Part shown: positions 1 through 44,636 of the stretch, in pieces
Layout: every line of letters begins with the position of its first letter
Position numbering within the stretch: position 1 is the first letter of the stretch
IMG/VR virus record: IMGVR_UViG_3300045988_183350
Length of the DNA: 64,000 nt
DNA from: a virus
Direction: 5' to 3' (one strand)
Position numbers and translations under genes: made by a program
Notes under the pieces: model-generated
Database searches by the model: none
The model's input: only the letters and a program-made list of their open reading frames with translations
Told to the model about the DNA's origin: nothing

Positions 1-1032
1 AACACTTATGTCATCATTATTGGTGCCGGTGGTAATGGTAAATCAATCTACCTAAATATGCTCACTAAACTTGCAAGTGGTTATGACGCTAACCTCGATA
101 TGCAAGATATTGGTGACGATAATAAAATCAACGAAATTAGCGAAAGTACAAAGCTAATTTTAGGACACGAACTTGCAACAAATGCTAAATTTACCGGAAA
201 TATGATTTCTCGTATTAAACAATTAGCAACCGGAGACCCAATCAAAGTTAATGTGAAGTTTAAAGACGCAAAAGTTATAGCAGCCGATTGTGTTAAGATT
301 CAAGCGACAAATACTGTTCCTAAGATTTTTGAGAATAACAATGCGATTTTAAGACGTATCAAATTAGTACAGTGGACTGATAAAGATTTCAGTAAACTTG
401 AAACAAATATTGATTTAGACAGTCTAATTGAAGACCCCGAATTTATCGAGGCATTTATTTCATATATTTTTTGTGATACAGGTAAATTTAAAAAGTTCAT
501 CAATATTAAATCAGTTGAGGAAGATTCAGCTAATGCCGTTAATGATGCAGACCAAGTATATCAATTTTTGAGTCATTTACAAGAACAAGACCAGTTAGTT
601 GGTAATATTCCGACAAATGTATTGTATAAAATGTATGACCAATGGAATAAAGCAGAAAATCCAGGTAGTAGACCTTTAAAATCAAAAGAGTTTTTATCTC
701 GTGTCAAGACTCAGTGTTCAAAATTTGGTATTATTTATGACACTAATCGAAAGCCGTTGTCATCACGAGATATTAAAGATTTTAACTTTATGACTCTTAA
801 TAAGTACTACTACAATTACAAGCTTGACGTTAATAAATATTCTAATGCAAGTACGATTATTTGTCCAGACCAAGTAACAGACGATGATATTTTGGATATT
901 CAAATGAAATTAGGTACAGGTGAATTAGACTATGACGTGAATTACAAACGATTATTGATTATTGATTATTTGATTGTTAACAAATTAGATGATGATGCAA
1001 TAACATATAAGAACATAATCGATGAAATGTAG
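1..1032 (+). CDS. DNA primase/helicase, C-terminal part (P4-alpha / D5-like SF3 NTPase); 5' end lies upstream of the window
   Basis: Frame 1 is open from nt 1 and encodes a Walker A motif ..IIIGAGGNGKSIYLN.. before the first Met at 58; downstream 'VNVKFKDAKV' and 'LVQWTDKD' stretches; iteron-rich origin-like region immediately downstream. Confidence 0.6.
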   Translation, partial: NTYVIIIGAGGNGKSIYLNMLTKLASGYDANLDMQDIGDDNKINEISESTKLILGHELATNAKFTGNMISRIKQLATGDPIKVNVKFKDAKVIAADCVKIQATNTVPKIFENNNAILRRIKLVQWTDKDFSKLETNIDLDSLIEDPEFIEAFISYIFCDTGKFKKFINIKSVEEDSANAVNDADQVYQFLSHLQEQDQLVGNIPTNVLYKMYDQWNKAENPGSRPLKSKEFLSRVKTQCSKFGIIYDTNRKPLSSRDIKDFNFMTLNKYYYNYKLDVNKYSNASTIICPDQVTDDDILDIQMKLGTGELDYDVNYKRLLIIDYLIVNKLDDDAITYKNIIDEM

Positions 1033-1189
1033 ATAACCAATTATCTACATTTTTTATTTTCCAATGTAATTCAGGTATTGATTTTGTAAGTTTCATATGA
1101 GTTATATTAACTTGATAATATTATAAATAATTACAGAAAAATAACTTAAGTAGCTGATATATGAAATACAAATGAGATTTTTTCCAATG

Positions 1190-2160
1190 TACTAAAAATT
1201 TTCCAATGGTTGAATTTTTTAATTGTAAAGCTATTTAACTATTGATACAGAAGTAATTCGCGTATATACTATGATTATGGTGTAATATAACGGAAAATTA
1301 CATTGGTTGTTTGATGTTACAGGTAAAGTCAAGAAATTTTCCAATGTAATGTAAATTTCTCTCAAGCATATATATATATTATTCATGTATTTAGGCAAAA
1401 TACCCATTATATATATTTTTTAAATTATATTGGAAAATAATAATAAAAAATATAATAATACCAATACTTCAGGACCTTTCCATTGTACTTTCCAATGTAT
1501 TTTACTGAAAAAATCACATATACCTGAATTACTTCTGTATCAAGGTTAAACCATCTTTCCAATGTTTTTTCCTGTACATTGGAAAATTTCGTATACATTG
1601 GAAAACATTGGAAAATACCATTGAGTTATTGGTACTCAAGGTAGCTAACAAGTTTTCACTGTAATTTTTAGTTTTTCATTGAATTTGTATTCCACTGTAC
1701 TTTATTTAGCTTTATCTTGTAATATCAATACTTGAAGTATATTGGAAAGAATTTCACTAAACTTATCAAAATTGGTAAACCTTTTTCAAAAGTTGGTAAA
1801 CCTTTTCTTGAAATTAGTAAACCTTTTTCAAAAATCAGTAAACCTTTTTAGCATTTTAATTAAATCCTAAATTTTAAGACCTTTTACTTGATACTCAGGT
1901 ATTTATCATCATTTTGCTAATATTTTCCAATTTAATCAATATTTTATTAAACTAACCGTATTGCTTGTGTAACAGTTAATGGCTTAAGTTTTTTGAAAAG
2001 TAAACTTTTTTGAAAAAAGGTTTACTGATTTTGCCAAAAGGTTTACATTTTTCATCAAAAGGTTTACTGTTTTGGTGAAAAGGTTTACTATTTCCGAAAA
2101 AAAGTTTACTTTTAATTTTTTAGCATTGGAAAATTTTTTCCAATGTGTATGAAATGTTGA
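1190..2160. repeat. Origin-like module copy 1 (duplicated at about 2840-3800): 16-bp inverted repeat GATACAGAAGTAATTC (1244-1259 / 1526-1541) flanking an AT-rich core
   Basis: Core 1290-1660 is near-identical to 2950-3320 (e.g. 'ctcaagcatatatatat...ataataccaatacttcaggacctttcca'). Confidence 0.75.
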
Positions 2161-2839
2161 TAATATTAAGCTTGTTTAGTAACTTAAGTTTAGTTGATAT
2201 TAATAAAACTCAATGGGATTGATTCGTAATCAGTAGTATTGATTGAAACTTTCTAATGTATAAAAATTTTTTGGTTGTACAGGAAAGTACATAAAGTGTT
2301 GATACCTTTACAATTATGACTTGTATTACAATCATGGTGTATAACATTAGAAAGTACATTAGAGAGTTGATGTTACAAGTAAGACTGTAAAATTTTCTAA
2401 TGTATAAGAGGTTTTATCCAACTAAATTTAAGATGAATATATTTTAGCTGAATAATTATTATTAATATTAGTTAAGTACATTAGAAAGTTATATCAGACT
2501 GTCAATGATACCAATATCCAATGTACTTTCTAATGTACTTTCTAATGTATTTTGTTATTAAAATTGTATGTTTCAGAATAGATTACGTATTAATAATAAA
2601 GTAATTTTCAAATGATTTACAAGGTATAAATATCATCATTAAGTATTTTTATTATATTATCAGCAGTTGAAATACATTGGAAAGAAATATACAGAATTGG
2701 AAAATATTTTCCAATGTATATTATATATTGATAATGCAACAAAAACAGGTAATTTAGTCTCATAATTAAATTTAAACAAAGTTGATTCAATTTGATATTA
2801 TTGATTGATATACGAACTTATCCAATGAAAAGTATTATA

Positions 2840-3800
2840 ATTTTCCAATGTATTAAAAATTTTCCAATGTTAGTTTCCATTGTATAGGAAAGGTACTTTG
2901 ACTTTGATGCAGAAGTAATTCAGGATAACACTGTGATTATAGTGTAAAACATTGGAAAAACACATTGGTTATTTGATGTTACAGGTAAAGGCAAGAAATC
3001 TTCCAATGTGATGGAATTTTTTCTCAAGCATATATATATATGATACAAGAATTACAGTAAAATACCCATTATATATATTTTTTAAATTATATTGGAAAAT
3101 AATAATAAAAAATATAATAATACCAATACTTCAGGACCTTTCCAATGTCTTTTCCAATGTTTCACACTATAATCACAGTGTTATCCTGAATTACTTCTGC
3201 ATCAAGGTTAAACCATCTTTCCAACGTTTTTCACCTACATTGGAAAGTTTCTCATACATTGGAAAACATTGGAAAATACCATTGAATCATTGATACTCAA
3301 TATAACTAACTACTATTTTGCTATAATTTCGAACTTTCTCTTGAATTTATCATCAAACCTGATTTATTCAGTTTTACTTATAATACCAATACCTGAAATA
3401 CATTGGAAGGAATTTCATTAAACTTGATAAAATTAGTAAACCTTTTGACAAAATCGGTAAACCTTTTTGCGAAATTGGTAAACCTTTTTAGCGTTTTTAT
3501 CAAATCTTAAATTTTAAGGTCTTTAACTTGATACTCATACATTCGATTCTGTTTTAGTTGTAATTTGTGTTTTAGTCGATATTTTCATGAATAGTCTTCA
3601 ATAACTCTGTAACAACCAATAACCTAAGTTTTTCAGAAAGTAAACTTTTTTGAAAAAAGGTTTACTGAATTTGCCAAAAGGTTTACTGTTTTGGTGAAAA
3701 GGTTTACCAATTTCACGAAAAGGTTTACTATTTCCAGAAAAAAGTTTACTTTTAATTTTTTAGTATTAGAAAGTTCTTTCCAATATACCCAACTACCTGA
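2840..3800. repeat. Origin-like module copy 2; ~40-bp inverted repeat (GCAGAAGTAATTCAGGATAACACTGTGATTATAGTGT / reverse complement) flanking an AT-rich core
   Basis: Direct alignment with copy 1; the same order of TTTCCAATGTA boxes, then GGTAAACC direct iterons, then inverted AAAGGTTTAC iterons. Confidence 0.75.
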
Positions 3801-3933
3801 TATTATTGCATTTCTATTTAATTCAATTATCCCTGGTCTATTTTTCTAATATAATTTTCTTCTGCAATCTCAATATCTCAATTACATTGGAAAATTCTTG
3901 CTATTATAATTTTCCATTAATAATATTAGTCAT

Positions 3934-3967
3934 AAAGGCTTACTTTTCAATTAATCTGTGATATAAT
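3934..3967 (+). promoter_or_regulatory. Conserved early-type promoter (-35-like AGGCTTACTTTT; extended -10 TGTGATATAAT)
   Basis: Motif AAAGGTTTACTTTTA-N-TGnTATAAT recurs about 35 times in the window; this copy precedes CDS 4005. Confidence 0.6.
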
Positions 3968-4004
3968 AATATATAATTATAGATAAAAGTAAGGATATTA
4001 TTTT

Positions 4005-4766
4005 ATGAATTTAGCAGAAAAAGCGAAGAAGCATCATGCGTTGATGGAAAATACAAAGTCAATTTATACTGACGGAACCGTATTAGAATCAACAATTTAT
4101 CTTGAAGATGCTTTTGACAATAAAAAACAATCATATAGAACATTTAATAATGACATTGTTATTGCTGACCTTGATTCTATTTCAGCTGCTTACAAATATG
4201 AAATGACAGGTCGTGTTGCCTTATTGAATTTTGCGTCATTTACCCATCCTGGTGGTGCGTTCTTGTTTGGTAGTCGTGCTCAAGAAGAAGCCATTTGTCA
4301 TGAGTCAAATTTGTTTGAAATTTTAAATGACGATAAATTTAGTTTGTTTTATCGTATCAATCAAAAGGACCTTGGCAATCACTTATATTACAATCGTGGC
4401 ATTTACTCACCAGGAGTTATTTTAACTCGAGATAATGACGAACACTTTACTGACGTTATTACTGTTGCGGCTCCTAATGCGATGAAAGCTTATGATGGCA
4501 CAGATGATTTTGATGTGAGAAATCTTGTTATTTTGAAATCTCGAATTGATTTTATCTTAAAAATTGCAGAAGCAAATCATGTTGACACATTGATTCTTGG
4601 AGCTTTTGGTTGCGGTGTCTTTGGTCAAAGTCCATATGACGTAGCAACTTGTTTTAAAGACCTCTTGCCTCATTATAACTTTAAAAAAGTTGTCTTTGCA
4701 ATTCCTGATTTTAATGATGGCAATTTAGAAGCATTCAAAGAAGTCTTTACAGAAGAAAATAAATAA
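4005..4766 (+). CDS. Macro-domain protein, bacterial-type poly(ADP-ribose) glycohydrolase-like (DUF2263/TIGR02452 family)
   Basis: Signature 'NFASFTHPGGAFLFGSRAQEEAICHESNL' matches the GGG-x6-8-QEE PARG motif; RBS AAGGA 9 nt upstream. Confidence 0.55.
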   Translation: MNLAEKAKKHHALMENTKSIYTDGTVLESTIYLEDAFDNKKQSYRTFNNDIVIADLDSISAAYKYEMTGRVALLNFASFTHPGGAFLFGSRAQEEAICHESNLFEILNDDKFSLFYRINQKDLGNHLYYNRGIYSPGVILTRDNDEHFTDVITVAAPNAMKAYDGTDDFDVRNLVILKSRIDFILKIAEANHVDTLILGAFGCGVFGQSPYDVATCFKDLLPHYNFKKVVFAIPDFNDGNLEAFKEVFTEENK

Positions 4767-6794: not shown

Positions 6795-7583
6795 ATGAAA
6801 TATAAAGATATACAAGAAATTTTTAAAGGTGTTGGTAATGACAAATTGTTTAGTAATCACATTTATTTGATTGCTGAGTGTTTATCATTTTTTGCGTTAC
6901 TTGCCTTTGATAATATATTTTCACGGTTAGTTTTCACGCTCGCTTTGATTGTATTTTCGGTACTTTCGGTGACGAGTTCATTGAATTTTTACTCAGTCAT
7001 GCAATCGGACAAAAGTCAGCAAACTGAAATGCTTAATTTGCTTGACATTAGAGACCGCAATTTTGGATTTGATTTAAACATGGCAAGTTTTATTAAATTA
7101 TTTTTGCTTAAGTGGCTAAACATTCTTGGACGTTCAAGCGTATTCATTGTTATTGCAATTATTATGAGTGTGCTTAAGTTCAGTGCATATTTGTGGGTTC
7201 CATTTAGTTTGTTTTTACTTGCGATTTTGTATTATTGGATAATGTATGGATTTGCAAATTTATTGTTTTATAAAAATCGTAACTCGGATACAAAATTGGC
7301 ATTGTATTTAAAGCAAAGTAAAAATCTGATAAGTACACATTTACGTGACCTGGCAAAAACTTACAGTACAATGATTTTGCCATTTATTGGTGCGTGTCTT
7401 CTTGGTTTTGTATTAATTGTCGTCGGTTACATTATGTTTTTAGGCGAGAATTATAACTTCTTGGTATTGCTTAGCGAATTCATTTGTATCGTACCATTTT
7501 TGATTCGATTCCGCTACTTATTTGTTTATACATTTGACAAACTTTATAAGGAAGGACATAAAGACGATGACAAAAACAATTAA
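6795..7583 (+). CDS. Multi-pass membrane protein
   Basis: Several hydrophobic segments; promoter GGTTCAC..TGTGATATAAT at 6727-6757. Confidence 0.5.
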   Translation: MKYKDIQEIFKGVGNDKLFSNHIYLIAECLSFFALLAFDNIFSRLVFTLALIVFSVLSVTSSLNFYSVMQSDKSQQTEMLNLLDIRDRNFGFDLNMASFIKLFLLKWLNILGRSSVFIVIAIIMSVLKFSAYLWVPFSLFLLAILYYWIMYGFANLLFYKNRNSDTKLALYLKQSKNLISTHLRDLAKTYSTMILPFIGACLLGFVLIVVGYIMFLGENYNFLVLLSEFICIVPFLIRFRYLFVYTFDKLYKEGHKDDDKNN

Positions 7584-8520
7584 AAAGACAATTTCACTTG
7601 CATTATTAAGTGTGACTTTATTAGGTACAGCAGGTCCAGCCTTGGCAGACGAAAAGACAGACGTACAAAATCAGATTACGACAATTAACCAAGAGTTAAC
7701 TGATACAACAACTAAAATTTCAGAGTTGCTTGGTAAAATTGGTGACAATGAGGCGGCAATAAAAGATAATGAGGCTAAAATTAAAAGTATTCGCGAGACA
7801 TTAAACAGTCAAGCGAGAGCTATGCAGACAGATTCAGAGCCAACAAATCTTTTCACGCTTTTATTGCAAGCTAAATCTTTATCAGATATTTTTGACATTT
7901 TTAATTCAAGTTCGACCATTGCATCTGCAAATGATGAAAATATTACAAAGATGAATACTTTGATTAAAGAAAATAAAGCCAAACAAGAAAGTTTGACAAA
8001 AGAATTAAATGACTTGCAAAAATCGCAACAAGACCTTGAAAAGTCGAATACTGATTTGCAAAATAAATTACAATCGATTAATGACGCGGAGGCAAAAGCT
8101 AAAGCTGAACAGCAAGTAAAAGCTAACATGCAAAATGCAAAATCTGTTTCAACCGTAGTTGCTCAAACAACAGGTGGTGGTAATTTGCCTAGTCAAGCAA
8201 GCGGTACAAAACAGTTTGCACCTAGTCAAGCTAGGGAAGCTTTCGAGCAAATCACACAAGATTATGGCGTCACGGGTTATGAGAAGCAAATATGGGAACA
8301 AATTATTACAGCTGAATCAGGCTGGAACACGACTGTTTGGAATGGCGGTGGTTCAGGAGCCTATGGTTTAGGTCAAGCATTACCGGCTGACAAGATGGCG
8401 GTTTATGGGTCTGACTACATGACAAATCCATACACACAATTGGTTTGGATGTACAATTATGTTCGCGAGCGTTACGGTAGTTTTGCTGGCGTTCAATGGG
8501 AATCCCGTGGATGGTATTAA
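7567..8520 (+). CDS. Secreted coiled-coil protein with C-terminal lytic-transglycosylase (SLT)-like domain
   Basis: Signal peptide MTKTIKKTISLALLSVTLLGTAGPALA; heptad-rich middle; C-terminus 'AESGWN...AYGLGQA' resembles the SLT ES/GLMQ motifs; start chosen at the Met after RBS AAGGAAGGA (track ORF begins at 7522). Confidence 0.5.
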   Translation: MTKTIKKTISLALLSVTLLGTAGPALADEKTDVQNQITTINQELTDTTTKISELLGKIGDNEAAIKDNEAKIKSIRETLNSQARAMQTDSEPTNLFTLLLQAKSLSDIFDIFNSSSTIASANDENITKMNTLIKENKAKQESLTKELNDLQKSQQDLEKSNTDLQNKLQSINDAEAKAKAEQQVKANMQNAKSVSTVVAQTTGGGNLPSQASGTKQFAPSQAREAFEQITQDYGVTGYEKQIWEQIITAESGWNTTVWNGGGSGAYGLGQALPADKMAVYGSDYMTNPYTQLVWMYNYVRERYGSFAGVQWESRGWY

Positions 8521-8551
8521 AAAAACGCACCGATTTTGGTGCGTTTTTTAT
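8521..8551. terminator. Bidirectional rho-independent terminator
   Basis: AAAAACGCACCGATTTTGGTGCGTTTTTT between convergent genes. Confidence 0.65.
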
Positions 8552-8925
8552 TATGGGATTGTGATTAAAATATTATTATTTTCTTTTAAGTGCGTACGTG
8601 TGTTATAAATGGCACGGCTTAGTTTTTGGTTGTGCTCGATATGGCTTTCGTGCAAAATATGGCGGTAATCGCCAATAATAATAAGTGTATCACGGAGTGT
8701 TTTAAGCTCGTCTTCGATATACTCAGTTGTGTTATTTGTCACCCACTGAGTTTCGAGAGGTTCGTCAAATTTATCTTTAATAATAAGAGCATTAAAGTAT
8801 AGACGTGACGGGTCGATAAAAACGATTTTTGACACTTGAGTACTTTTATCGGCAATTAAATGCAATAGTCGGGTTTGTGTGGTTGGTGAGAGCTCAAACA
8901 AACGTTGTTTCTTCTGTGGTTTCAT
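8551..8925 (-). CDS. Hypothetical protein
   Basis: 124-aa ORF; RBS AAGGAG 10 nt upstream; overlaps the upstream gene by 32 nt. Confidence 0.4.
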   Translation of the reverse strand: MKPQKKQRLFELSPTTQTRLLHLIADKSTQVSKIVFIDPSRLYFNALIIKDKFDEPLETQWVTNNTTEYIEDELKTLRDTLIIIGDYRHILHESHIEHNQKLSRAIYNTRTHLKENNNILITIP

Positions 8926-9379
8926 TTAAAAAATCTCCTTTGAAATTATAAATAGTTGCACTTGTCAAATTAGGTTCCTCATTTACTAAAGTCAAACGAA
9001 TCCAATCATTTAGTGTAAGAACTTCTTTTTCATTACAAATCATGGATTGTACGTTATCTGTAAAACTAAATTCAGACCTTAAGTCGTTGTAAACGTCACT
9101 AACATTGACAACTTCGGTTTCGTAAGCATCGATTTCGACAATACAACAGTCCTTATGAAATGACATTTGAGCAAAATCATAGGCAACGTCGTATGATTGT
9201 GAAAAGCTTTTATTTTTAACAAAAAGTTTATCACCGTCAGTTTCGATAACGTCAAAACCTCTATATATCGGTGTTTCGTTTACTGTGACATATTCGGCAA
9301 GCTCGTCAATATAGTATGTATTGTTATAAGCTACGTGGTCAATAAGCCAGCGATAAAGCTTTTCTTTTGCTGTTGACAT
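8894..9379 (-). CDS. Hypothetical protein
   Basis: 161-aa ORF; minus-strand promoter ACGTTTACTTTTA..TGATATAAT in 9405-9457; RBS AAGGAGAC. Confidence 0.45.
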   Translation of the reverse strand: MSTAKEKLYRWLIDHVAYNNTYYIDELAEYVTVNETPIYRGFDVIETDGDKLFVKNKSFSQSYDVAYDFAQMSFHKDCCIVEIDAYETEVVNVSDVYNDLRSEFSFTDNVQSMICNEKEVLTLNDWIRLTLVNEEPNLTSATIYNFKGDFLNETTEETTFV

Positions 9380-9467
9380 GAAAGATAAGTCTCCTTAATT
9401 TAACAAAGTTTAATATATAATTTTATTATATCATAAATCAAATAAAAGTAAACGTAATTTAAGCAAA

Positions 9468-9512
9468 AAACGGTTTACTTTTATTAATTTTATGATATAA
9501 TTAATTATATCA
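9468..9512 (+). promoter_or_regulatory. Conserved promoter (ACGGTTTACTTTTA ... TTATGATATAAT), divergent from the minus-strand promoter at 9405-9457
   Basis: Direct motif match. Confidence 0.6.
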
Positions 9513-9539
9513 ATTAAACATATAAGGAGTTTTAAACAA

Positions 9540-9758
9540 ATGGCCGATAAATTAATGTCTCGCCGAATGGCATCTCACTATTTGGGCACATCAAAACGCT
9601 ACTTGAAAGCTTTAACACAGGTTGGACGAATGTTTCCTGAAAAGTCGTTTCCTGAACGCTGGTCTAAACAAGACTTAGACCGTTACAAACAGGAAATTGG
9701 TCGTGACATCACGCCTGACCTTGAAGCATCACTAATTCGTAGTGCAAAATCGCGTTAA
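9540..9758 (+). CDS. Small basic protein, possible DNA-binding regulator
   Basis: 72-aa ORF with RBS AAGGAG; Lys/Arg-rich. Confidence 0.4.
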   Translation: MADKLMSRRMASHYLGTSKRYLKALTQVGRMFPEKSFPERWSKQDLDRYKQEIGRDITPDLEASLIRSAKSR

Positions 9759-10009
9759 AACCATTTACAAAATGACAATTACGCGATATAATAAAATTAC
9801 TAAAATTAAAAATTAAGAAAACGTAACATATAGTTCTTTTGATTTATTTTTTTAGTTAATCTTAACAACTTAAAGCCGCTTGGTTTTCAACTAGGTGGCT
9901 TTTTCACGTTACGACTATATTACAAAATTTAAAATTTTATATGCAATTCTAATAATTCGTGTTATAATAATATTATAGACTAAAAAAACTTATACAAAAG
10001 GAAGATTCG

Positions 10010-11110
10010 ATGATACATAAACGATTAAAAGGTAAAATTTTATATAGTTCAGTAATCTTAGGTGTAGCTTTATTTTCAGGAGTTTCGCCTGTAACAGCAT
10101 TAGCTGATGACAATAATTCTGTGAAAATTGACAAAATTATTTCAAGTTCACAAGATATTGACAAGTCGTCAGAGCAATCTTTGAATGCGTCAATTACAAA
10201 ATTGCAAAACTCAATTTCAGATTTGGAGTCTGAAAACAAGCAATTGCAATCTGAGGTTGACAAATTAGCTAAAGATTTGGACAAATTGACAAAAGATATT
10301 ATTGCTCGTAACAAGCAATTAGAGTCACAGGCTGTTGACATGCAAACGTCTACAGGTTCAGATGGCATTATTGGAGCATTGACGTCTTCAAAATCAATTT
10401 CAGATGCAATTTCAAAATTGACAGCTATGGGAACAATCTCGTCTGCAAATGACAATGCCATTAAAGATTTGAAAAAACAAAAGACTGAATTAGAGAAGAA
10501 ACAAAAGGAAAATCAGGCTAAAATCAATGAGATTGTGGAAAACACACAAAAATTGAATGAGGCTAAAGCAAATTTAGACGTAGCTAAACTTGAATTGCAA
10601 GCGAAACAAGAAGAAGCTCGAAAAGCTGACGAAGCTAAAAAAGCTGAAACGGCAAAAGCTTTGAAAGCGGCTGAAAGTAAAGCCGATTCTGTGAAAAATG
10701 CAACAAGTAATCTCGAAGCGCGAAGCAATGAGGCTGTACAACCAGGTGAGGGTAATTTCACGCCTAATTACTCAGGTAATACTTATCCAGCTGGCCAATG
10801 TACTTGGGGCGTGAAATCACTACTTCCTTGGGTTGGTAATTACTGGGGTAATGCAAACCAATGGGGAGCAAGTGCACAAGCTGAAGGACACACTATCGGA
10901 AATACGCCTAAGGTTGGAGCTATTGCCGTTTGGCCTGAGGATGGCGGTGGCTATGGACACGTCGCCGTAGTTTCAAAAGTAAACAGTGCAACGTCTATTG
11001 AAGTATTAGAGTCAAACTATGCAGGTAATATGTCAATCGGTAATTACCGTGGCACATTTAATCCGCAAGCTGTTTGGTCTGGAAGTTCAGTATATTATAT
11101 TTATCAATAA
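10010..11110 (+). CDS. Secreted coiled-coil peptidoglycan hydrolase with C-terminal CHAP domain (PcsB-like)
   Basis: Signal peptide; long heptad/coiled-coil region; C-terminal 'GQCTWGVK...GYGHVAVV' places the Cys/His CHAP catalytic pair. Confidence 0.65.
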   Translation: MIHKRLKGKILYSSVILGVALFSGVSPVTALADDNNSVKIDKIISSSQDIDKSSEQSLNASITKLQNSISDLESENKQLQSEVDKLAKDLDKLTKDIIARNKQLESQAVDMQTSTGSDGIIGALTSSKSISDAISKLTAMGTISSANDNAIKDLKKQKTELEKKQKENQAKINEIVENTQKLNEAKANLDVAKLELQAKQEEARKADEAKKAETAKALKAAESKADSVKNATSNLEARSNEAVQPGEGNFTPNYSGNTYPAGQCTWGVKSLLPWVGNYWGNANQWGASAQAEGHTIGNTPKVGAIAVWPEDGGGYGHVAVVSKVNSATSIEVLESNYAGNMSIGNYRGTFNPQAVWSGSSVYYIYQ

Positions 11111-11137
11111 TTGTCAGAAAATAAAAAATAAATCTTA

Positions 11138-11172
11138 AAAAGGATTTACTTTTTATTTTTATTTGTTATAAT
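11138..11172 (+). promoter_or_regulatory. Conserved promoter (AGGATTTACTTTTT ... TGTTATAAT)
   Basis: Direct motif match. Confidence 0.55.
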
Positions 11173-11207
11173 TAAATAAATACTTAATTAAAAACAAAGG
11201 AAATTTT

Positions 11208-12269
11208 ATGAAGATTAAAAAACTTTTATATAGTACAATGCTTTTAGGAACATTTGCGACAGCAACTTTGCCTAGCGTTCACGCTTTGGCTGAAGACACA
11301 ACTGTCGACAGTATTGTTTCTGAAGCCTCTAATTTGGACCGTTCGTCAATTAGTTCATTGAATGCGTCTATTACAAAGTTGCAAACGGCAATTTCAGATT
11401 TGGAAGCAAAAAACAATGAATTAAAAGCTGAAGTGGACAAGCAAAATGAGGAAGTTGAAGCGTTAGCTAAGAATGTCATTGCACGAACAAAACAATTAAA
11501 CAAACAAGCTGCAGACATGCAAACGACCTCTAAAGGTACATGGCTTGACGCAGTTACTTCGTCGGGGTCATTGTCTGATATATTGTCTAAACTCTCGGCT
11601 ATGGGAACAGTGTCATCGGCAAATAATGACGCGATTACTGATTTGAAAAAACAAAAAGCTGAGCTTGAGAAGAAGCAAAAAGAAAATCAGGATAAGATTA
11701 ATGAAATTAATAGTAACAGTCAAAAGCTTGAAACAACCAAAGCTGATTTGGAAGTAGCTAAACAGGATTTGTTGCATAAGCAAGGTTATAATAATGAAGA
11801 AGAATTGCTCGCGGCAGAACAAAGAGCCAAAGAAGTCAGAAACGGAGCTAATGGTATTCAGGACCGCAGTAATGAAGCTATTCAAGCTGGCGAGGGTAAT
11901 TTCACACCTAATTATGCGGCGAATTCATATCCTGTAGGTCAGTGTACTTGGGGTTGTAAAGTGTTACTTCCTTGGGTCGGTGACTATTGGGGTAACGCAA
12001 ACCAATGGGGAGCAAGTGCTCAAGCAGCTGGACATACAATTAGTTACACACCCAAAGTTGGGGCTGTTATTGTATGGCCTAATGAGGGTGGCGGTTATGG
12101 ACACGTCGCAGTTGTGTCTAAGGTGATTGACGCAAATACCATTGAGGTTTTAGAGGCTAATTACGGTGGAAGTGCGTATGCCGCTGACCCTCGTGGCGTC
12201 GGCAATTATCGTGGGCCTTTTAACTGGCCATCATCTGGTGGTGGCGGTGCCTACTTTATTTACGAGTAG
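11208..12269 (+). CDS. Secreted coiled-coil CHAP-domain peptidoglycan hydrolase, paralog of 10010-11110
   Basis: Same architecture; 'GQCTWGCK...GYGHVAVV'. Confidence 0.65.
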   Translation: MKIKKLLYSTMLLGTFATATLPSVHALAEDTTVDSIVSEASNLDRSSISSLNASITKLQTAISDLEAKNNELKAEVDKQNEEVEALAKNVIARTKQLNKQAADMQTTSKGTWLDAVTSSGSLSDILSKLSAMGTVSSANNDAITDLKKQKAELEKKQKENQDKINEINSNSQKLETTKADLEVAKQDLLHKQGYNNEEELLAAEQRAKEVRNGANGIQDRSNEAIQAGEGNFTPNYAANSYPVGQCTWGCKVLLPWVGDYWGNANQWGASAQAAGHTISYTPKVGAVIVWPNEGGGYGHVAVVSKVIDANTIEVLEANYGGSAYAADPRGVGNYRGPFNWPSSGGGGAYFIYE

Positions 12270-15232: not shown

Positions 15233-15263
15233 TAACCATGAGAGTTCATTATCCTTTTATATT

Positions 15264-15338
15264 GGACCTTTAGCTTAACTGGTTAAAGCATTCAGCTCAT
15301 AACTGAAGGTATGTGGGTTCGAGTCCTGTAAGGTCCAT
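15264..15338 (+). tRNA. tRNA with anticodon CAT (Met / fMet / Ile-lysidine class)
   Basis: Acceptor GGACCTT/AAGGTCC; anticodon arm TTCAG-CTCATAA-CTGAA; TTCGAGT T-loop. Confidence 0.6.
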
Positions 15339-15387
15339 TAACACAGCTTGTGTTAATAAAAATTATTTTAAGAAAAGGAATTTCAAA

Positions 15388-40108: not shown

Positions 40109-40351
40109 ATGTATAAAATTGATAACTCCGTAAGTCTTAATGACTTCGACACAATTTCACAATATATCAAATGGCTTTGCAAGCGTAAAGGTATTACGAT
40201 TAAAAAAATGTGCGAGAATACCGGCTATAAGTATAATACAATCGCAGGTAATTATAAAAATCAATATTTAAGTCGTCAAACGTTGGTTGACGTGATTAAT
40301 TACTTGGAAGGCGATTTTAATATCGCTATGAACTTGCCTTACAGAAAATAA
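40109..40351 (+). CDS. Small hypothetical protein
   Basis: 80 aa; RBS AGAGG. Confidence 0.45.
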   Translation: MYKIDNSVSLNDFDTISQYIKWLCKRKGITIKKMCENTGYKYNTIAGNYKNQYLSRQTLVDVINYLEGDFNIAMNLPYRK

Positions 40352-40442
40352 AAGAAAGGACTACTTTTAAAAGTAGACCTTGATACAAAAGATGAATCTC
40401 TGTATTTATTATATCAAGGTTTACCGAAAAAGTAAATAGTTT

Positions 40443-42149
40443 ATGATGAAATTATTTGATACTAAAGATGATTTTAAAAATCATATCAAATCACTCGTCC
40501 GTAAAGCTAGTCCATTATTAAATGAAGGCAAACCTGTTACAACTCTTAGAACTCCTGAAGTAGTCGAACATCTTGATACATGTTTAGACTTAATTTATGA
40601 AAAAGAAATTGTCGAGAGTACCGTTACATTCAGATGGTATTATCGCAATTATGACTCATATCTTTACAATGAATTAACGTCTAATGAACTAAAGGCACTT
40701 ATCAGGTTAATTGCGAAAGGTATTGGTGCAAAAAATTATGATTTAGCTAAAATCGCTTACAGTGTCGTCGACGAATTAAATGCCGGCGCATCGTATGACG
40801 AACTTAAAGCTAAACCATACAAAAAACCACCATGGAATTATGTACTAACAGTTAATGGGATATTCAATCTCAAATCAGCTGAATTCTATACAATTGATTC
40901 AGATAAATACAAACAGTTAGTTACAACATATCACTTTTTTAATAATGTCACAATTAGCTATTATGAACAACCACATAATAAGTCGAAATTTGAATTGTAT
41001 AAAACATACATGGACTCATTATGCAACGGTGAGGAAGACTTACAAAAGTTACTCAAACAAGGAATGTTTGCCGTTATCGAAGGTAATGGACGACATAAAT
41101 ATTTTATGATTTCCGGAGACCCAGGTATTGGGAAATCTACGTTAGGCTATTTGTTTATGGCACTAGCTGGACAAGCAAATACTAAAATATTGAATATTGA
41201 CAAATTAGCAAATAATAACGCAATTAATGCAATTTCGCCGCAGACAAGATTGATTATTGGCGACGACTTAAAAAATAATGCGAAAATTTCAGACGATGCA
41301 ATTACAAACTATAAAATTTTAGTGGATGGTAATGCGTTGTCAGCTGAAGTTAAATACGAGCACAATCGTATTATTAAAACAAATGCGTTTTGGATGCAAA
41401 TGATGAATGAAGCACCAAGGATTTACGAGGCCGGTGAAGCAATTACAGACCGAACGATTTTTATTCACTTAAAAGGGAAAAATCACAGGAATGACAAAGA
41501 AGCCGCAGCTAAAGAAATGGCTAAACGTTTAGACGAGTATTTAGGCCGACGTGGGAATGGCATTGACCAGGAATTTATTAATGAGATTGCGTCAGATGTA
41601 TTAAGAAGTATTAAATACTTTGACGAATTTGATATTCCAGAGTCAATTAAGAAAGCAACAGCTAATATGGTTAATGAAAATAACTGGATGCACCAGTTTA
41701 TTGACCATGCCACAGAAGTTGGTTTGTTCGAATTTAATACATTGAAGCAATCAACAATTGTCTCATGTGTGGAACTGTTTTTACGTGAGAATAATCCAGG
41801 CATGACTATTCCAGCAGCAAGACGGATTGTTAAAGAGTGGAAAAAACAGCTGGATGATTTGGGTTATAAAGAAGAAACTGTTCGTCAACGTAGTGTACCA
41901 GAGATTGATTACAATGCAGACATTATAAAAAATTATATGTTTGAAGGATTCAATGACAAAAACACAATGACAACAATGTATTCTAAAACAAGAGGCAGAA
42001 TTGACGACAAAAATATTAAGAAATTTGAAGCCGAACTTGAACAAGGGTTGGTTCCAAAAGAATTGTCAATACGACAAATGATTATGCTTGAGCATTTAAT
42101 CAGTAAAGGCAATTTAACTGCAGCAAGTTATAAAACAGATGCAAAATGA
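40443..42149 (+). CDS. P-loop NTPase (putative replication initiator / SF3-like helicase)
   Basis: Walker A 'ISGDPGIGKSTLGY'; large N-terminal domain; followed by a 2.4-kb repeat-rich non-coding region. Confidence 0.45.
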   Translation: MMKLFDTKDDFKNHIKSLVRKASPLLNEGKPVTTLRTPEVVEHLDTCLDLIYEKEIVESTVTFRWYYRNYDSYLYNELTSNELKALIRLIAKGIGAKNYDLAKIAYSVVDELNAGASYDELKAKPYKKPPWNYVLTVNGIFNLKSAEFYTIDSDKYKQLVTTYHFFNNVTISYYEQPHNKSKFELYKTYMDSLCNGEEDLQKLLKQGMFAVIEGNGRHKYFMISGDPGIGKSTLGYLFMALAGQANTKILNIDKLANNNAINAISPQTRLIIGDDLKNNAKISDDAITNYKILVDGNALSAEVKYEHNRIIKTNAFWMQMMNEAPRIYEAGEAITDRTIFIHLKGKNHRNDKEAAAKEMAKRLDEYLGRRGNGIDQEFINEIASDVLRSIKYFDEFDIPESIKKATANMVNENNWMHQFIDHATEVGLFEFNTLKQSTIVSCVELFLRENNPGMTIPAARRIVKEWKKQLDDLGYKEETVRQRSVPEIDYNADIIKNYMFEGFNDKNTMTTMYSKTRGRIDDKNIKKFEAELEQGLVPKELSIRQMIMLEHLISKGNLTAASYKTDAK

Positions 42150-44636
42150 ACTTATTGATTTAAGTTTATTTTTTTTTTTATATAAAAACTTGACAAAAAA
42201 TCAGAAGCGTGCGTGAATGGGTTTTTTCATGCACAAATTTAGTGAATTAACTGGTACGTATACTGTCGAGCTAACTCTAATTATTACTGGTGAATTACAG
42301 GATATTTACTGTAAGTATTGGTAATCATACTGTTCATGATACTGTGCATGAACTTTTTTTCATGCACGAATTTAGTGAATTAACTGGTAGACATACTATC
42401 AAGATGACGTTGGTTATTACTGGTGAATACAGATAAATTACAGGATATTTACAGTAAGTATTGGTAATTATACTGTTCATGATACTGTGCGCGAACTTTT
42501 TTCGCGCACAAACTTAACCTATTACTTGATACTGTTGGTACAGGGATGATACTGGTAAAAATAGGTAAATTTTAGGGTATTTACCGTAAGTATTGGTAAT
42601 CATACTGTTCATGATACTGTGCGCGAACTAGGGTATACTTTCGTACGCGCACACTTTCGCGCACGCTTCCTCAAGTACTGGTATTCTTACGTAAATTAAC
42701 AGTGAATTTAGGTGTACTACCGTACACGCACACCTTCACGCACACCGTCCTGACTATTGGTAACCATGAGTTATGCACACTTCGTGTGCATATAAATTTA
42801 AAAAATAGTACAAAAGAATATTTTTTTAACTTTTATTTTATTAAAAAAAAAGTTGTATTTCATATAGGTTACAGCCAATTTTTGTGAATTCACGCACACT
42901 GCGTGTGCGGAAGGTAAGAGTACCAGTAATTAGAAGGTTGTGCATGAAGGTGTGCGTCTAATTTTGCTCACGCACAAATTTGAATTTGCGAGGTCGACAG
43001 CGAGCTGTCTCTCAATCAAATGGGAAATTGTGGTCCGAAAAAATTACGCGCACACTCTTACGCACACATATACTGTTTGCTTGATAGTCAATACATTGGT
43101 CAAATTTATGGTTAAAAAATAAATTTACCGTATGATAGTGTAAATTGACTGGTAATCAACTAAAGTAAAAGAGTTGTGCACGTAATTAGGTGTACTTACG
43201 TACACGCACAGTTCATGCACAGTTACGCACAGTAATTGACTGTCATATATCCGTCAAATTTATGGTTAAAAAATAAATTTACTGTATCATACCGTAAATT
43301 GGCTGGTACCCAACTAAAGTAAAGAGATTGTTCATATAATTAGGTATACTTACGTACGCGCACAACTTAATGATTTTGCGTAAATATTTGGCTAATCAAA
43401 ACACATACTCAGATAAATTATACAAAGAATTACTCGCACATATGACTAATCCTAAACGCATTACCGTATAAATTATAAGCAGATACGGTTATAACATTAA
43501 ATGATTCAAGTAAAACTTAAGACAAAGTTATTGGATGAGTTAAGACATTTAATGATACAAAAATAACTAATTGCAAAAAACCTTAAATAAGTCTAAATGA
43601 ATGATGAGGTAGAGGTATGTGGCAGGCCATAGACTATTATGTTTAATAGTTTAAAAGCAGAATTTGCTAGCACTTTGCAGTCATGCAGTAAATTTTTTCA
43701 AGAAATAATATCCTGAATTTTTTTGGGATATTATTTTTTTATTTCAAGAAACTTGTAAAAATAAATTTTTGTGCAGTAAAAGCGCACGGCAAAAAAATAC
43801 TGCACAATTTTGACTATAATGATTGAGTACCTGTAAATACAGTTAAATATTCTTTTGATTTTGTTTAATTTGATTTAATTTTATGAAATTTTCATTGTAC
43901 TGGTACTCAATACCTTTATTATACTGTGCGCTATAATAGTATACCAAAATTTGGTGCACAGTTTGGTGCACACGCTGTTGACTATTGGTACACAACAGTT
44001 ATTTGACTGTTGATTTCAGGTATACTATTATAGCGCACAACTTGGTGCACAAATATCTTTTGCTTGGTACTGTTACAATCCACACACGTTGTGTGCGGTA
44101 TTTTTTAAAATTTATATCAAAAGAATATTTTTTTATTTTTTATTTTATTAAAAAAAAAGTTGTATTTCATATAGGTTACAGCCTGTTTTCCTGTTTTGCT
44201 GCACGCAGCGCGTGCAGACATCAACTATACCAGTTAAAAGGTATGTGTGCAGTAAGTTGTGCGGTAAATTTTCTTGGTGCACAAATTTGACTTTGCCAAG
44301 TCGACAGCGCGCTGTCGCTCAATCAAAGCGTCAATCTTGAAAGACCGAAAAATAGTGCACAACTTGCTGCACAGGTATCTTGACAGTAAGAGTACCAATC
44401 CATACGGCTGGTTTTCTGTAAATCGCAATTTTATACCAAAATTCAACTGTATAGTCTGTGTACCAAATAAAAGTAAGTAAAATCCAAAAATCATGCACCA
44501 AAAATTTTTTCCTGCACGCAATATTAACCTTTACCTTGATTACCAGTAGTTCGGCTGAGATTTTTTACTGCACAACTTAATGATTTTGCTTCAATTTTTC
44601 CTGAAAAATAAAAAATAAGCAGTAAAATTTTACTGC
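42150..44636. repeat. Repeat-rich non-coding region (second origin / packaging / terminal-repeat candidate)
   Basis: No credible ORF; three copies of TGGTAATCATACTGTTCATGATACTGTGC (about 42320, 42460, 42600); many GTGCGCG/TGCACAA boxes; two palindromes GTCGACAGCG(A/C)GCTGTC (42992-43010, 44302-44320); ~100-bp unit duplicated at 43105-43205 / 43270-43370; ~70-bp unit duplicated at 42810-42880 / 44110-44180. Confidence 0.7.

What the first reader, a model, noticed from the sequence alone, without database searches (positions are those of the whole stretch)
1033..4000. Three-kilobase iteron forest next to a P4-alpha-like primase-helicase: candidate duplicated replication origin (ori/crr-like)
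Seen directly: the 3 kb after the primase-helicase stop has no credible ORF. It carries more than 40 copies of a 10-bp box TTTCCAATGTA (variant TTTCTAATGTA in the central 2200-2830 part) in both orientations. It also carries two clusters of four direct GGTAAACCTTTT iterons (1775-1856; 3435-3490), each followed ~150 bp later by 5-6 inverted copies, AAAAGGTTTAC (1995-2125; 3630-3770). There are long inverted repeats around AT-rich cores (16 bp at 1244/1526; ~40 bp at 2905/3175). A ~950-bp module occurs twice (1190-2160 and 2840-3800), with a near-identical core at 1290-1660 vs 2950-3320. Established knowledge: the P4 alpha primase-helicase binds iterons in ori and in a second cis-replication region (crr) a few kb away through its C-terminal domain. 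An alpha-like gene followed by two iteron modules is the same layout. Also seen: the GGTAAACC iteron is the reverse complement of the -35 part of the ubiquitous promoter motif here (AAAAGGTTTAC). Inference: origin firing and early transcription may share a recognition element.
Basis: partly seen in the sequence, partly recalled or inferred. Interest (0 to 1): 0.8.

Follow-up and report, generated by a model that had tools for sequence, protein, structure and literature searches.

The report
Iteron replication origin of giant plasmid
The 3-kb gene-free repeat region is most likely the replication origin of a giant plasmid-like element of mouth bacteria, built like the small origins of staphylococcal phage satellites but triplicated, and it gives a concrete handle for testing how these newly found elements copy themselves.

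Summary
Window 1033-4004 has no credible ORF and ~24% GC. It holds 30 of the window's 33 exact TTCYAATG boxes, four 21-bp-phased AAAAGGTTTAC arrays, and three (not two) tandem core modules. Each core surrounds one of the least stable DNA stretches in the 64 kb.

The gene upstream is a D5/P4-alpha-type SF3 helicase. A family profile matches only SaPI5 PriRep5 among PDB sequences (E 4e-22), and the C-terminal part models with winged-helix matches. No primase domain was recognised.

In eight related lineages the same small-HTH gene, helicase and AT-rich gap recur. The gap carries a different 8-11-bp box in each lineage. Box identity follows the helicase C-terminus, not the HTH.

This is the SaPI-type rep-ori layout, enlarged. 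The genome is not phage-like; it resembles an Inocle-type giant element of oral Streptococcus.

The GGTAAACC arrays do share the -35/upstream element of the element's promoters. They occur only in this lineage and one other, so they are accessory and unexplained.

A second complete HTH-helicase-iteron cassette lies at 40.1-44.6 kb.

Origin firing is inferred, not shown. Skew evidence is good in some relatives and weak here.

The parts
1..1032 (+). 3' 343 codons of the Rep-like SF3 helicase gene (about 600 aa in full). Contains the Walker A motif GAGGNGKS, the winged-helix C-terminal domain and a variable C-terminal extension.
1029..1060 (+). AT-rich hairpin GTAGATAA-CCAA-TTATCTAC overlapping the stop codon, followed by a T-run. 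Possible weak terminator of the rep transcript.
   Evidence: Read directly from the sequence. Not called by the terminator scan, which requires G-C pairs.
1170..1760 (.). Core module M1. TTTCCAATGTA boxes on the + strand at 1181, 1200, 1338, 1477, 1489, 1556 and on the - strand at 1575, 1594, 1604, 1738, around an AT-rich centre. Short inverted repeat 1244-1259 / 1526-1541.
1368..1473 (.). Candidate DNA-unwinding element of M1. Joint least stable 60-mer cluster of the whole 64-kb window.
   Evidence: Nearest-neighbour stability scan: -54.2 kcal/mol against a window mean of -73.0.
1775..2109 (.). First pair of AAAAGGTTTAC arrays, 21-bp period. Four units on the - strand (1775-1848), a poorly conserved ~150-bp spacer, then one - unit (2000-2010) and five + units (2015-2109). 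Accessory element of unknown role.
   Evidence: No TATAAT follows the units, and none is called as a promoter.
2236..2831 (.). Core module M2. A diverged third copy of the core in which the boxes read TTTCTAATGTA (a concerted C-to-T 'dialect'). AT-rich centre at 2423-2495. No array arm.
   Evidence: The dialect is conserved in close relatives L005, L006 and L028.
2832..3420 (.). Core module M3, 81-85% identical to M1. The box-containing inverted-repeat arms 2887-2959 / 3150-3222 enclose the AT-rich centre.
   Evidence: As single-stranded DNA the arms form a stem of about 75 paired bases: -83 kcal/mol, z -13.8.
3029..3135 (.). Candidate DNA-unwinding element of M3. Joint least stable 60-mer cluster of the window.
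3436..3749 (.). Second pair of AAAAGGTTTAC arrays. Three units on the - strand (3436-3488), a spacer, then one - unit (3640-3650) and five + units (3655-3749).
3777..3893 (.). Distal boxes at 3777 (+) and 3883 (-), at the edge of the region.
3934..3967 (+). Standard promoter of the downstream PARG-like gene (4005-4766): AAAGGCTTAC, 18 nt ending in TG, then TATAAT. Marks the right border of the non-coding region.
40109..44630 (+). Second, paralogous cassette in the same window. Small HTH gene 40109-40351. DUF5906 helicase 40443-42149. A 2.4-kb ORF-poor repeat forest 42150-44630 with its own boxes (YRCGCACA / GTGCAC, TAYTGGTA), two AT-rich centres (42788-42854, 44096-44174), and inverted-repeat arms of about 66 nt.

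Best explanation
Window 1033-4004 is the cis-acting replication region (origin) of a rep-ori cassette of the SaPI / P4-alpha kind. It sits in a giant plasmid-like element, most likely Inocle-like, with an oral Streptococcus host.

Proposed mechanism, all inferred by homology:
1. The gene ending at 1032 encodes a self-loading SF3 helicase-initiator.
2. Its C-terminal winged-helix region binds the 10-11-bp TTTCCAATGTA boxes. These lie in both orientations around AT-rich centres.
3. The helicase melts those centres (1368-1473, 3029-3135, and more weakly 2423-2495).
4. It loads itself as hexamers for bidirectional unwinding.
5. Priming is done by another enzyme, because no primase domain is recognisable.

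The origin core has been triplicated in tandem. The middle copy carries a one-base box 'dialect'.

The 21-bp-phased AAAAGGTTTAC arrays are a lineage-restricted accessory made of the element's promoter -35/upstream element. Their role is unknown. My best guess is that they dock RNA polymerase or a regulator.

Shown: sequence anatomy, homology, fold, comparative co-variation. Inferred: binding, melting, firing.

For: 2. Known paradigm. SaPI Reps read iterons through the C-terminal winged helix. Their iterons lie immediately downstream of rep, on both sides of an AT-rich centre, pointing in opposite directions (PMC9371898).

3. Conserved position, changing sequence. In eight lineages (47-97% Rep identity) the helicase gene is followed by a 0.7-3-kb AT-rich gap. 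The gap is full of a box that is almost absent from the rest of each ~20-kb locus (0-3 hits outside the gap). The boxes are:
- TTTCCAATGTA (the window)
- CAAAGAGACC / ATAACGCCA
- CTGTTAAAG
- CTGTATCAAT + CCGCTCAATAT
- AATTAAGAGA
- TAGTAGCCAC
- AATTAATAGCA (the weakest case: 3 exact 9-mer hits in the gap, 2 outside)
- CTGTGAGCCA / CTGGTACCCA
.

4. Dyad layout. In L014, which is syntenic with the window, all 10 matches to each half of a composite box lie on one strand left of an AT-rich centre (6) or on the other strand right of it (4). I read roughly seven composite boxes per side in the sequence.

5. Boxes follow the Rep C-terminus, not the upstream HTH.
- L010 and L012 have HTH proteins 99% identical but unrelated boxes. 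Their Rep last 110 aa are 34% identical.
- Their backbones are 92-94% identical. Similarity falls to 77% in rep and is lost about 320 nt before the rep stop and through the origin. So the C-terminus and origin are swapped together.
- The C-terminal ~110 aa are always the most divergent part of Rep.

6. Melting centres. The two least stable 60-mer clusters of the whole 64 kb are the centres of M1 and M3. M2's centre is also in the top 0.5%.

7. Strand asymmetry.
- The window itself holds a second HTH-helicase-iteron cassette with different boxes.
- L010 and L011 have a V-shaped cumulative GC-skew minimum and a gene-orientation switch 1.5 kb upstream of rep.
- Plus-strand GC3 skew goes from negative to positive across the cassette in all five relatives, whether the flanking genes diverge, converge or run the same way. 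It is significant in L007, L011 and L014.
Against: - No experiment or replication-intermediate data exist for any member.
- In the window's own lineage the genes upstream (seen in relative L005) and downstream are mostly on the + strand. GC and GC3 skew change only weakly: -0.085 to +0.048, then back to -0.16 at 20-33 kb.
- The skew flips in relatives are partly confounded by gene orientation and by gene content. In L014 and the window the same PcsB-type genes carry the positive GC3 skew.
- In M1 and M3 the box orientations are not a clean dyad around the AT-rich centre.
- With two cassettes in the window, it is unknown which one fires, or whether both do.
- The most variable Rep segment includes a C-terminal extension beyond the SaPI5 alignment. 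Which sub-domain reads the boxes is therefore unknown.
- Some of the 34-39 boxes could serve copy control or incompatibility rather than initiation.
Confidence: 0.65

Rival explanations
1. The box forest is mainly a copy-number or incompatibility control region, or a partition (centromere-like) region. Repeated sites would bind Rep or a partner protein to titrate or handcuff it, as in P1 incA or F incC downstream of the rep gene. Or they would bind a segregation protein. Initiation would occur elsewhere, for example at the second cassette.
For: - The number of boxes (34-39) and the tandem triplication far exceed the 6-12 iterons of SaPI origins (PMC9371898).
- Arrays phased at 21 bp resemble centromere repeats.
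- Skew support at this site is weak in the window's lineage.
- A second cassette lies at a gene-orientation switch.
- The plasmid precedents are from my own knowledge, not tested here.
Against: - Each core encloses an extreme low-stability centre flanked by inverted box-bearing arms. That is origin-like, not needed for titration.
- No ParA, ParB, ParM or TubZ gene was found in the window or in the ±10-kb flanks of relatives.
- In relatives with short gaps (L009, L010, L012; 0.7-1 kb) the same layout exists with few boxes, as expected for a minimal origin.
Confidence: 0.15
2. It is a transcription-control region. The boxes are operators for the small HTH protein, or another regulator, controlling the flanking operons. 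The AAAGGTTTAC arrays are promoter clusters or decoys. There is no direct role in replication.
For: - A Cro/C1-type HTH gene always precedes the helicase gene.
- The array motif equals the promoter -35/upstream element.
Against: - Boxes do not follow the HTH: L010 and L012 HTH proteins are 99% identical, yet the boxes are unrelated.
- No box lies in the HTH-rep promoter region of L005.
- Array units lack a -10 element and are not called as promoters.
- A 3-kb operator field between two co-directional genes has no obvious regulatory logic.
Confidence: 0.07
3. It is a conjugative transfer origin (oriT), or another DNA-processing site of the element. Inocles encode VirB4, VirD4 and a relaxase-like InoC.
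For: - Long inverted repeats and an AT-rich context are also seen at oriT sites (my own knowledge).
- The Inocle paper reports type IV secretion genes (PMC12340149).
Against: - No relaxase or type IV secretion gene lies within ±10 kb in any relative.
- Dozens of short boxes that co-vary with a helicase C-terminus are not an oriT feature.
Confidence: 0.03
4. It is non-functional repeat DNA (a minisatellite or decayed mobile-element remains), or a non-coding RNA locus.
For: - Array copy number varies between 97%-identical relatives.
- Short-read assemblies break here.
Against: - The same position carries a box forest in every lineage although the sequences are unrelated.
- The dialect of M2 is conserved in close relatives.
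- No Rfam family matches: best E 0.27.
- No conserved ORF.
Confidence: 0.03

Closest known systems
SaPI / PICI replication module: Rep or PriRep self-loading helicase plus the ori immediately 3' of rep (Staphylococcus aureus pathogenicity islands)
   Same: - The helicase is homologous: profile E 4e-22 to PriRep5, and best structural match 7OLA.
- A C-terminal winged-helix region.
- Short island-specific repeats directly downstream of the rep stop, in both orientations around an AT-rich centre.
- Rep and ori co-vary as specificity pairs (PMC9371898).
   Different: - Scale. SaPI origins hold 6-12 iterons of 5-6 nt. Here there are 34-39 boxes of 10-11 nt over 3 kb, with three tandem cores and two box dialects.
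- An extra variable C-terminal extension on the helicase.
- A dedicated small HTH gene upstream.
- The host replicon appears to be a plasmid-like element on the order of 260-420 kb (relatives lie on contigs of that size), not a ~15-kb phage satellite.
- Extra arrays of a promoter element.
Phage P4 alpha protein with ori and crr
   Same: - SF3 helicase of the same broad family. TIGR01613 hits at 86-101 bits, just under the 108.7 cutoff.
- The protein binds repeats at its origin (PMC4234260, citing Ziegelin & Lanka 1995 and Yeo 2002).
   Different: - No Toprim or zinc primase domain recognised.
- Repeats are unrelated to P4's iterons.
- All cores are tandem on the 3' side of the gene. In P4, ori and crr are two sites kilobases apart flanking the gene (my own knowledge).
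- Three cores, not two.
pRN1 minimal replicon (orf56 repressor, orf904 replication protein, origin 3' of the gene)
   Same: - Gene order: small DNA-binding regulator, then an SF3-helicase replication protein with a C-terminal winged helix, then a cis-essential element just downstream of the gene.
- That element is a long stem-loop (PMC4234260). M3 here can form a stem of about 75 paired bases.
   Different: - pRN1 has a prim-pol domain and no iterons.
- Here iterons dominate and no primase domain is seen.
- Archaeal 5-kb plasmid versus a bacterial giant element.
Inocle giant extrachromosomal elements of oral Streptococcus (Kiguchi et al. 2025, PMC12340149)
   Same: - Size class of relatives' contigs: 264-416 kb.
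- GC about 32% (about 24% in one clade).
- tRNA genes, IS605/TnpB copies, LPXTG and cell-wall genes.
- Absent from phage, plasmid and genome references.
   Different: - Membership is not proven. The marker gene InoC (PF13814) was not seen in the 64-kb window or in the fetched flanks.
- The paper places origins only by GC skew and does not describe an initiator or origin anatomy.

Membership tests
D5 / P4-alpha-type SF3 helicase (DUF5906 / primase_Cterm) | P-loop SF3 ATPase core matching the family models | tested here: met
   PF19263 at 47-51 bits, above the 27.6 cutoff. Walker A GAGGNGKS at window 22-45. Structural matches to SaPI5 PriRep5, ASFV PrimPol and MPXV E5.
D5 / P4-alpha-type SF3 helicase (DUF5906 / primase_Cterm) | Score above the curated cutoff of TIGR01613 (P4-family primase C-terminal region) | tested here: not met
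   86-101 bits against a cutoff of 108.7 for four family members. Pox_D5 at 19 bits against 21.4. Related, but outside the curated family boundary.
P4 alpha primase-helicase | N-terminal primase domain (Toprim/zinc type) | tested here: not met
   No Pfam or NCBIfam hit in residues 1-170. The profile match to PriRep5 covers only chain 435-777, not its primase half. The fold of the N-terminal 160 aa was not searched separately.
P4 alpha primase-helicase | C-terminal winged-helix origin-binding domain | tested here: met
P4 ori / crr arrangement | Two separate iteron regions kilobases apart, on either side of the alpha gene, both needed in cis | tested here: not met
   All three cores are tandem within 3 kb on the 3' side of the gene. 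No box lies upstream of the gene in relative L005. The requirement in cis is not testable here.
SaPI-type Rep-ori module | Sequence and structural homology of the initiator to SaPI Rep | tested here: met
   hmmsearch E 4e-22 to 7OLA_A. Foldseek E 1e-19, target TM-score 0.62-0.75.
SaPI-type Rep-ori module | Iterons immediately downstream of the rep ORF | tested here: met
   The first box lies 26 nt after the stop codon, at 1058. The same placement is seen in all eight lineages.
SaPI-type Rep-ori module | AT-rich centre with iterons on both sides pointing in opposite directions | tested here: inconclusive
   Clean in L014. In the window the AT-rich centres are flanked by box-bearing inverted arms (M3). 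But + boxes lie on both sides of the centre, and the opposing - boxes follow 80-130 nt further right.
SaPI-type Rep-ori module | Rep-ori specificity pairs (each Rep reads only its own iterons) | tested here: met
   Comparative evidence only. There are eight lineages with eight box types. Boxes track the Rep C-terminus, not the HTH or the backbone. Binding itself was not tested.
SaPI-type Rep-ori module | Rep binds and melts the ori without ATP and supports replication | not testable with these tools
   Needs EMSA, KMnO4 footprinting and replication assays.
Inocle giant extrachromosomal elements | Presence of the marker gene InoC (PF13814 domain) on a circular 245-395-kb contig | not tested
   No PF13814 hit among the window ORFs scanned (35 of the roughly 90 ORFs of at least 90 aa) or in the gene tables of the fetched flanks. 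Whole contigs could not be read, and the paper's supplements are not held.
Inocle giant extrachromosomal elements | Size, GC, host-type genes, IS and tRNA content; absent from reference databases | tested here: met
   Relatives lie on contigs of 264-416 kb. GC 0.32-0.37. 21 tRNAs. TnpB genes. LPXTG, choline-binding, PcsB/CHAP and FtsEX genes. No near or strong match in the phage, PLSDB or GTDB searches run: only ~25%-identity primase hits in the phage and PLSDB collections.

The most novel reading that the evidence does not exclude
Giant oral-Streptococcus elements replicate from satellite-type (SaPI-like) self-loading-helicase origins that have been expanded into tandem multi-core, multi-dialect origins. 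In this lineage the origin is additionally wired to transcription. The 21-bp-phased arrays of the promoter -35/upstream element would dock host RNA polymerase, or an element-encoded promoter-recognition factor, beside each core, so that origin activation and promoter recognition share one DNA word. The dialect cores and the swappable C-terminus-plus-origin cassettes would then act as a compatibility code, letting several such elements, or two cassettes in one element, coexist.
Probability: 0.15. Interest if true: 0.75.

Novelty: new variant of a known kind. Interest (0 to 1): 0.55.

Why it matters
- Inocle-type elements were described only in 2025. Their origins were placed only by GC skew, with no initiator or origin sequence named (PMC12340149).
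- If this cassette is the origin, it defines a candidate minimal replicon of about 6 kb: HTH, helicase and iteron cores. That replicon could be cloned to test replication, host range, copy control and incompatibility in oral streptococci. It could also be used to build vectors or curing tools for these uncultured-by-default elements.
- It would also show that the replication module known from 15-kb phage satellites scales to replicons of roughly 260-420 kb.
- The helicase C-terminus and the origin appear to be exchanged as a unit between nearly identical backbones. That is a natural specificity-swap series, ready for protein-DNA recognition studies.

Tried and rejected
- **Phage identity.** Megablast of the region against 50,697 phage records gave no match. 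tblastn of the helicase gave only 25%-identity hits. An IMG/VR scan found no relative.
- **Known plasmid or genome.** PLSDB gave one irrelevant 26% hit. GTDB species genomes gave none.
- **ncRNA.** Rfam at E up to 1 gave only a chance miRNA hit.
- **DnaA boxes.** No cluster in any of the nine gaps.
- **A family-wide conserved element.** TTACAGGTAA is not conserved across lineages.
- **Arrays as real promoters.** No -10 element, and none called by the scan.
- **Arrays as a coding heptad repeat.** Only a 42-aa TTG ORF on one array. Copy number differs in relatives. The unrelated metagenome hits with the same 21-bp array are true coding KPF-heptad repeats (L019).
- **HTH protein as the box reader.** Rejected by the L010/L012 comparison.
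- **GC3 skew as clean proof.** It flips in the expected sense in all relatives. But it is confounded by gene orientation (L007, L010, L011) and by gene content (L014 versus the window), so I treat it as supportive only.
- **Recovering the window's own upstream flank through its PARG protein.** The short-read contigs returned all end inside the repeat forest.
- **Inocle paper supplements.** Not held. The Ubeda 2007 and 2012 papers are also not held.
Full report

Yes. Window 1033-4004 has only 40-58-aa ORFs. Its GC is 0.24-0.25, against about 0.35 elsewhere.

TTTCCAATGTA with at most one mismatch occurs 37 times in 64 kb, and 34 of these lie between 1058 and 3893. Chance expectation is 4.1. The exact core TTCYAATG gives 30 of 33 hits inside the region.

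AAAAGGTTTAC forms four arrays with a strict 21-bp period:
- 1775-1848, minus strand, four units.
- 2000 (minus strand) plus 2015-2109, plus strand, five units.
- 3436-3488, minus strand, three units.
- 3640 (minus strand) plus 3655-3749, plus strand, five units.

The module duplication is real, at 81-85% identity. Alignment shows three tandem cores, not two:
- M1, 1170-2175.
- M2, 2236-2831.
- M3, 2832-3815.

M2 is a diverged copy in which the boxes read TTTCTAATGTA, and it lacks the array arm.

The two least stable 60-mer clusters of the whole window are the AT-rich centres of M1 (1368-1473) and M3 (3029-3135). M2's centre (2423-2495) is also in the top 0.5%. In M3 the centre is enclosed by 73-nt arms that are 92% complementary and themselves contain boxes. 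As single-stranded DNA they fold at -83 kcal/mol, z -13.8.

**2. What is the gene next door?**

The window starts inside it. Full-length relatives are about 600 aa. The 434-aa gene call in the closest relative is an artefact of a scaffold gap.

- It matches DUF5906 above cutoff.
- It matches TIGR01613, the P4-family primase C-terminal region, just below cutoff.
- An AlphaFold model of a relative (pLDDT 88) is closest to the SaPI5 primase-helicase PriRep5, followed by the ASFV and mpox D5-type enzymes.
- A profile of 40 family members hits only PriRep5 among all PDB sequences: E 4e-22. The match covers its Rep half, not its primase half.
- No primase domain was recognised.

So 'P4-alpha-like' is right at superfamily level. 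'Primase' is unverified.

**3. What genome is this?**

It is not a recognisable phage. There is no DNA match in the phage collection, and only 25%-identity protein hits.

The window encodes:
- PcsB-type CHAP hydrolases, an alpha-1,3-glucanase with choline-binding repeats, an LPXTG protein, FtsX and a flotillin.
- FtsE, a PARP-like protein, NrdI and HU.
- A PARG-like protein.
- 21 tRNAs.

No phage structural gene turned up among the ORFs scanned.

Helicase relatives sit on metagenomic contigs of up to 416 kb. The window's own lineage is on contigs of 371 kb and 264 kb. Nothing similar is in PLSDB or in GTDB species genomes.

This fits the 'Inocle' giant plasmid-like elements of oral Streptococcus. 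Those are circular, 245-395 kb, about 32% GC, and carry tRNAs and IS elements. Their origins have been placed only by GC skew, and no initiator has been named (PMC12340149). Membership is an inference. The marker gene InoC was not seen in the sequence I could read.

**4. Comparative anatomy, the key result**

I fetched the helicase locus from seven other lineages with 47-68% Rep identity, plus close relatives. In every one:
- a small Cro/C1-like HTH gene (66-91 aa) precedes the helicase gene;
- a 0.7-3-kb AT-rich gene-free gap follows it;
- that gap is packed with a short box, in both orientations, that is almost absent from the rest of the locus (0-3 hits outside the gap).

The box differs in each lineage:

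| Locus | Box |
|---|---|
| window, L005, L006 | TTTCCAATGTA |
| L013 | CAAAGAGACC and ATAACGCCA |
| L007 | CTGTTAAAG |
| L014 | CTGTATCAAT + CCGCTCAATAT |
| L009 | AATTAAGAGA |
| L012 | TAGTAGCCAC |
| L010 | AATTAATAGCA |
| L011 | CTGTGAGCCA and CTGGTACCCA |

. L010 is the weakest case: 3 exact 9-mer hits in the gap and 2 outside it.

Two loci are especially informative.
- L014 is syntenic with the window. All 10 matches to each half of its composite box lie on one strand left of an AT-rich centre (6) or on the other strand right of it (4); I read roughly seven composite boxes per side in the sequence. That is a textbook dyad.
- L011 has two tandem cores with near-identical AT-rich centres but different boxes. 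This is the same phenomenon as the M2 dialect here. That dialect is conserved in close relatives.

**5. Who reads the boxes?**

The helicase C-terminal ~110 residues are always its most divergent part. One pair is 99% identical in the ATPase core but 63% identical in the C-terminus.

L010 and L012 are the decisive pair:
- Their HTH proteins are 99% identical.
- Their backbones are 92-94% identical.
- Similarity drops to 77% in rep. It disappears about 320 nt before the rep stop and across the gap.
- Their boxes are unrelated.

So the boxes travel with the helicase C-terminus, not with the HTH or the backbone.

This is the behaviour of Rep-ori specificity pairs in SaPIs. There the Rep C-terminal winged helix reads island-specific iterons. 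Those iterons lie immediately downstream of rep, on both sides of an AT-rich centre (PMC9371898). P4 alpha likewise binds origin repeats through a C-terminal winged helix. pRN1 has the order repressor, SF3-helicase Rep, then an origin stem-loop 3' of the gene (PMC4234260).

**6. Strand-asymmetry evidence**

- In L010 and L011 a V-shaped cumulative GC-skew minimum and a gene-orientation switch lie 1.5 kb upstream of the helicase gene.
- Third-position GC skew on the plus strand changes from negative to positive across the cassette in all five relatives tested. It is significant in L007, L011 and L014.
- The polarity is the same whether the flanking genes diverge, converge or are co-directional.

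This is supportive but not clean. It is confounded by gene orientation in three loci, and in L014 possibly by gene content.

In the window's own lineage the change is weak and not sustained. I therefore cannot say that this particular cassette is the element's main origin.

**7. A second cassette**

The window contains another complete set:
- HTH gene, 40109-40351.
- DUF5906 helicase, 40443-42149.
- A 2.4-kb ORF-poor repeat forest, 42150-44630. It has its own GCACA-type boxes, two low-stability centres, and inverted-repeat arms of about 66 nt.

It lies right after a switch from minus-strand to plus-strand genes. This strengthens the reading that each helicase is followed by its own iterons. 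It leaves open which cassette fires.

**8. The AAAAGGTTTAC arrays**

The motif is the invariant -35/upstream part of the element's promoters, aaAAAGGTTTACttttaN9TGnTATAAT.

- Array units have no -10 element and are not scored as promoters.
- The spacer between the paired arrays is the least conserved part of the module.
- Unit number varies among 91-97% relatives.
- Comparable clusters exist only in this lineage and in L007.
- Other metagenomic matches to the 21-bp array are unrelated coding heptad repeats.
- No sigma factor or partition gene was found nearby.

I treat the arrays as an accessory of unknown function. Docking of RNA polymerase or of a promoter-recognition factor is the most economical guess. 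It is untested.

**9. Verdict**

The finding is a real and well-organised feature. The most likely explanation is a SaPI/P4-type Rep-ori cassette: a self-loading SF3 helicase-initiator with cognate iterons around melting centres. Here it is enlarged and triplicated, in a giant plasmid-like element. Confidence is 0.65.

The ori/crr analogy, the primase label, the phage context, and the role assigned to the GGTAAACC arrays are not supported.

I rate it a new variant of a known kind, of moderate interest. Its main value is that it makes replication of Inocle-type elements experimentally approachable.

Noticed in passing
window 40109-44630: A second complete cassette: a small HTH gene (40109-40351), a paralogous DUF5906 helicase (40443-42149, 24% identical to the relative P0005 of the first helicase), and a 2.4-kb ORF-poor repeat forest. 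The forest has different boxes (YRCGCACA / GTGCAC, TAYTGGTA), two duplicated low-stability centres, and inverted-repeat arms of about 66 nt. It lies just after a switch from - to + strand genes.
   Followed up: partly
L010 9028-12606 versus L012 4963-8756: Backbones 92-94% identical on both sides. The 3' ~320 nt of rep and the iteron region are replaced: the helicase C-terminus and origin are swapped as one cassette. The adjacent HTH proteins stay 99% identical.
   Followed up: yes
L011 12200-13640: Two tandem origin cores with near-identical AT-rich centres. Every box is changed in concert, CTGTGAGCCA versus CTGGTACCCA. A separate upstream array of TTATGGRAT boxes lies at 11880-12200.
   Followed up: partly
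window 15263-20103: A cluster of 21 tRNA genes on the + strand, several preceded by the standard AAGGGTTTAC...TATAAT promoter.
   Followed up: no
window 7522-12269 and 24771-26401: The element carries its own FtsE-like ABC ATPase (24771-25457) and FtsX (25460-26401). It also has a PcsB-coiled-coil protein (7522-8520) and two PcsB-coiled-coil + CHAP hydrolases (10010-11110, 11208-12269). Together these would form a full FtsEX-PcsB-type cell-division hydrolase set, as known from streptococci.
   Followed up: no
window 4005-4766 and 26504-27478: A microbial PARG-like gene lies directly after the origin region. A weak PARP-catalytic-domain protein lies 22 kb away. Together they are a possible ADP-ribosylation writer/eraser pair.
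   Followed up: no
window 13057-15042 and 20606-23167: An alpha-1,3-glucanase (mutanase-like) with choline-binding repeats, and an 853-aa LPXTG-anchored coiled-coil protein. These are host-surface and biofilm-related cargo pointing to an oral Streptococcus host.
   Followed up: no
window 55192-63629 and 32820-39709: Long tandem runs of small paralogue-sized genes. About 25 genes of 94-137 aa lie on the + strand at 55-63.6 kb, in DNA of 26-29% GC. About 10 genes of 130-255 aa lie on the - strand at 32.8-39.7 kb. None has a Pfam match where tested.
   Followed up: no
window-wide (e.g. 26437, 27507, 28927, 34952, 36501, 37334, 39751, 62717, 63675): The promoter and leader architecture is extremely uniform: aaAAAGGTTTACttttaN9TGnTATAAT, followed about 25 nt later by aaAGAAATGAGGa. 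This suggests one strongly selected expression signal across the element.
   Followed up: partly
window 12518-12796: An element-encoded HU-family DNA-binding protein (PF00216, 114 bits). It could assist origin bending or melting.
   Followed up: no
L015-L018 (left ends): The four short-read contigs returned that carry the window's exact PARG protein all end 330-930 bp upstream of that gene, inside the repeat forest. This region breaks short-read assemblies, which may be one reason such elements were missed.
   Followed up: partly
L019 1990-2290: An unrelated 43%-GC contig has the same AAAGGTTTAC 21-bp array. There it is a coding RKPFDRD heptad repeat at the N-terminus of a pseudouridine-synthase-like protein. 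It is a coincidence, and a warning for motif-only searches.
   Followed up: yes
L009 3125-5352, 10001-11803, 12526-13848: The low-GC (about 24%) relative carries three DUF5906 helicase paralogues within 11 kb. One of them has its own upstream HTH gene.
   Followed up: no
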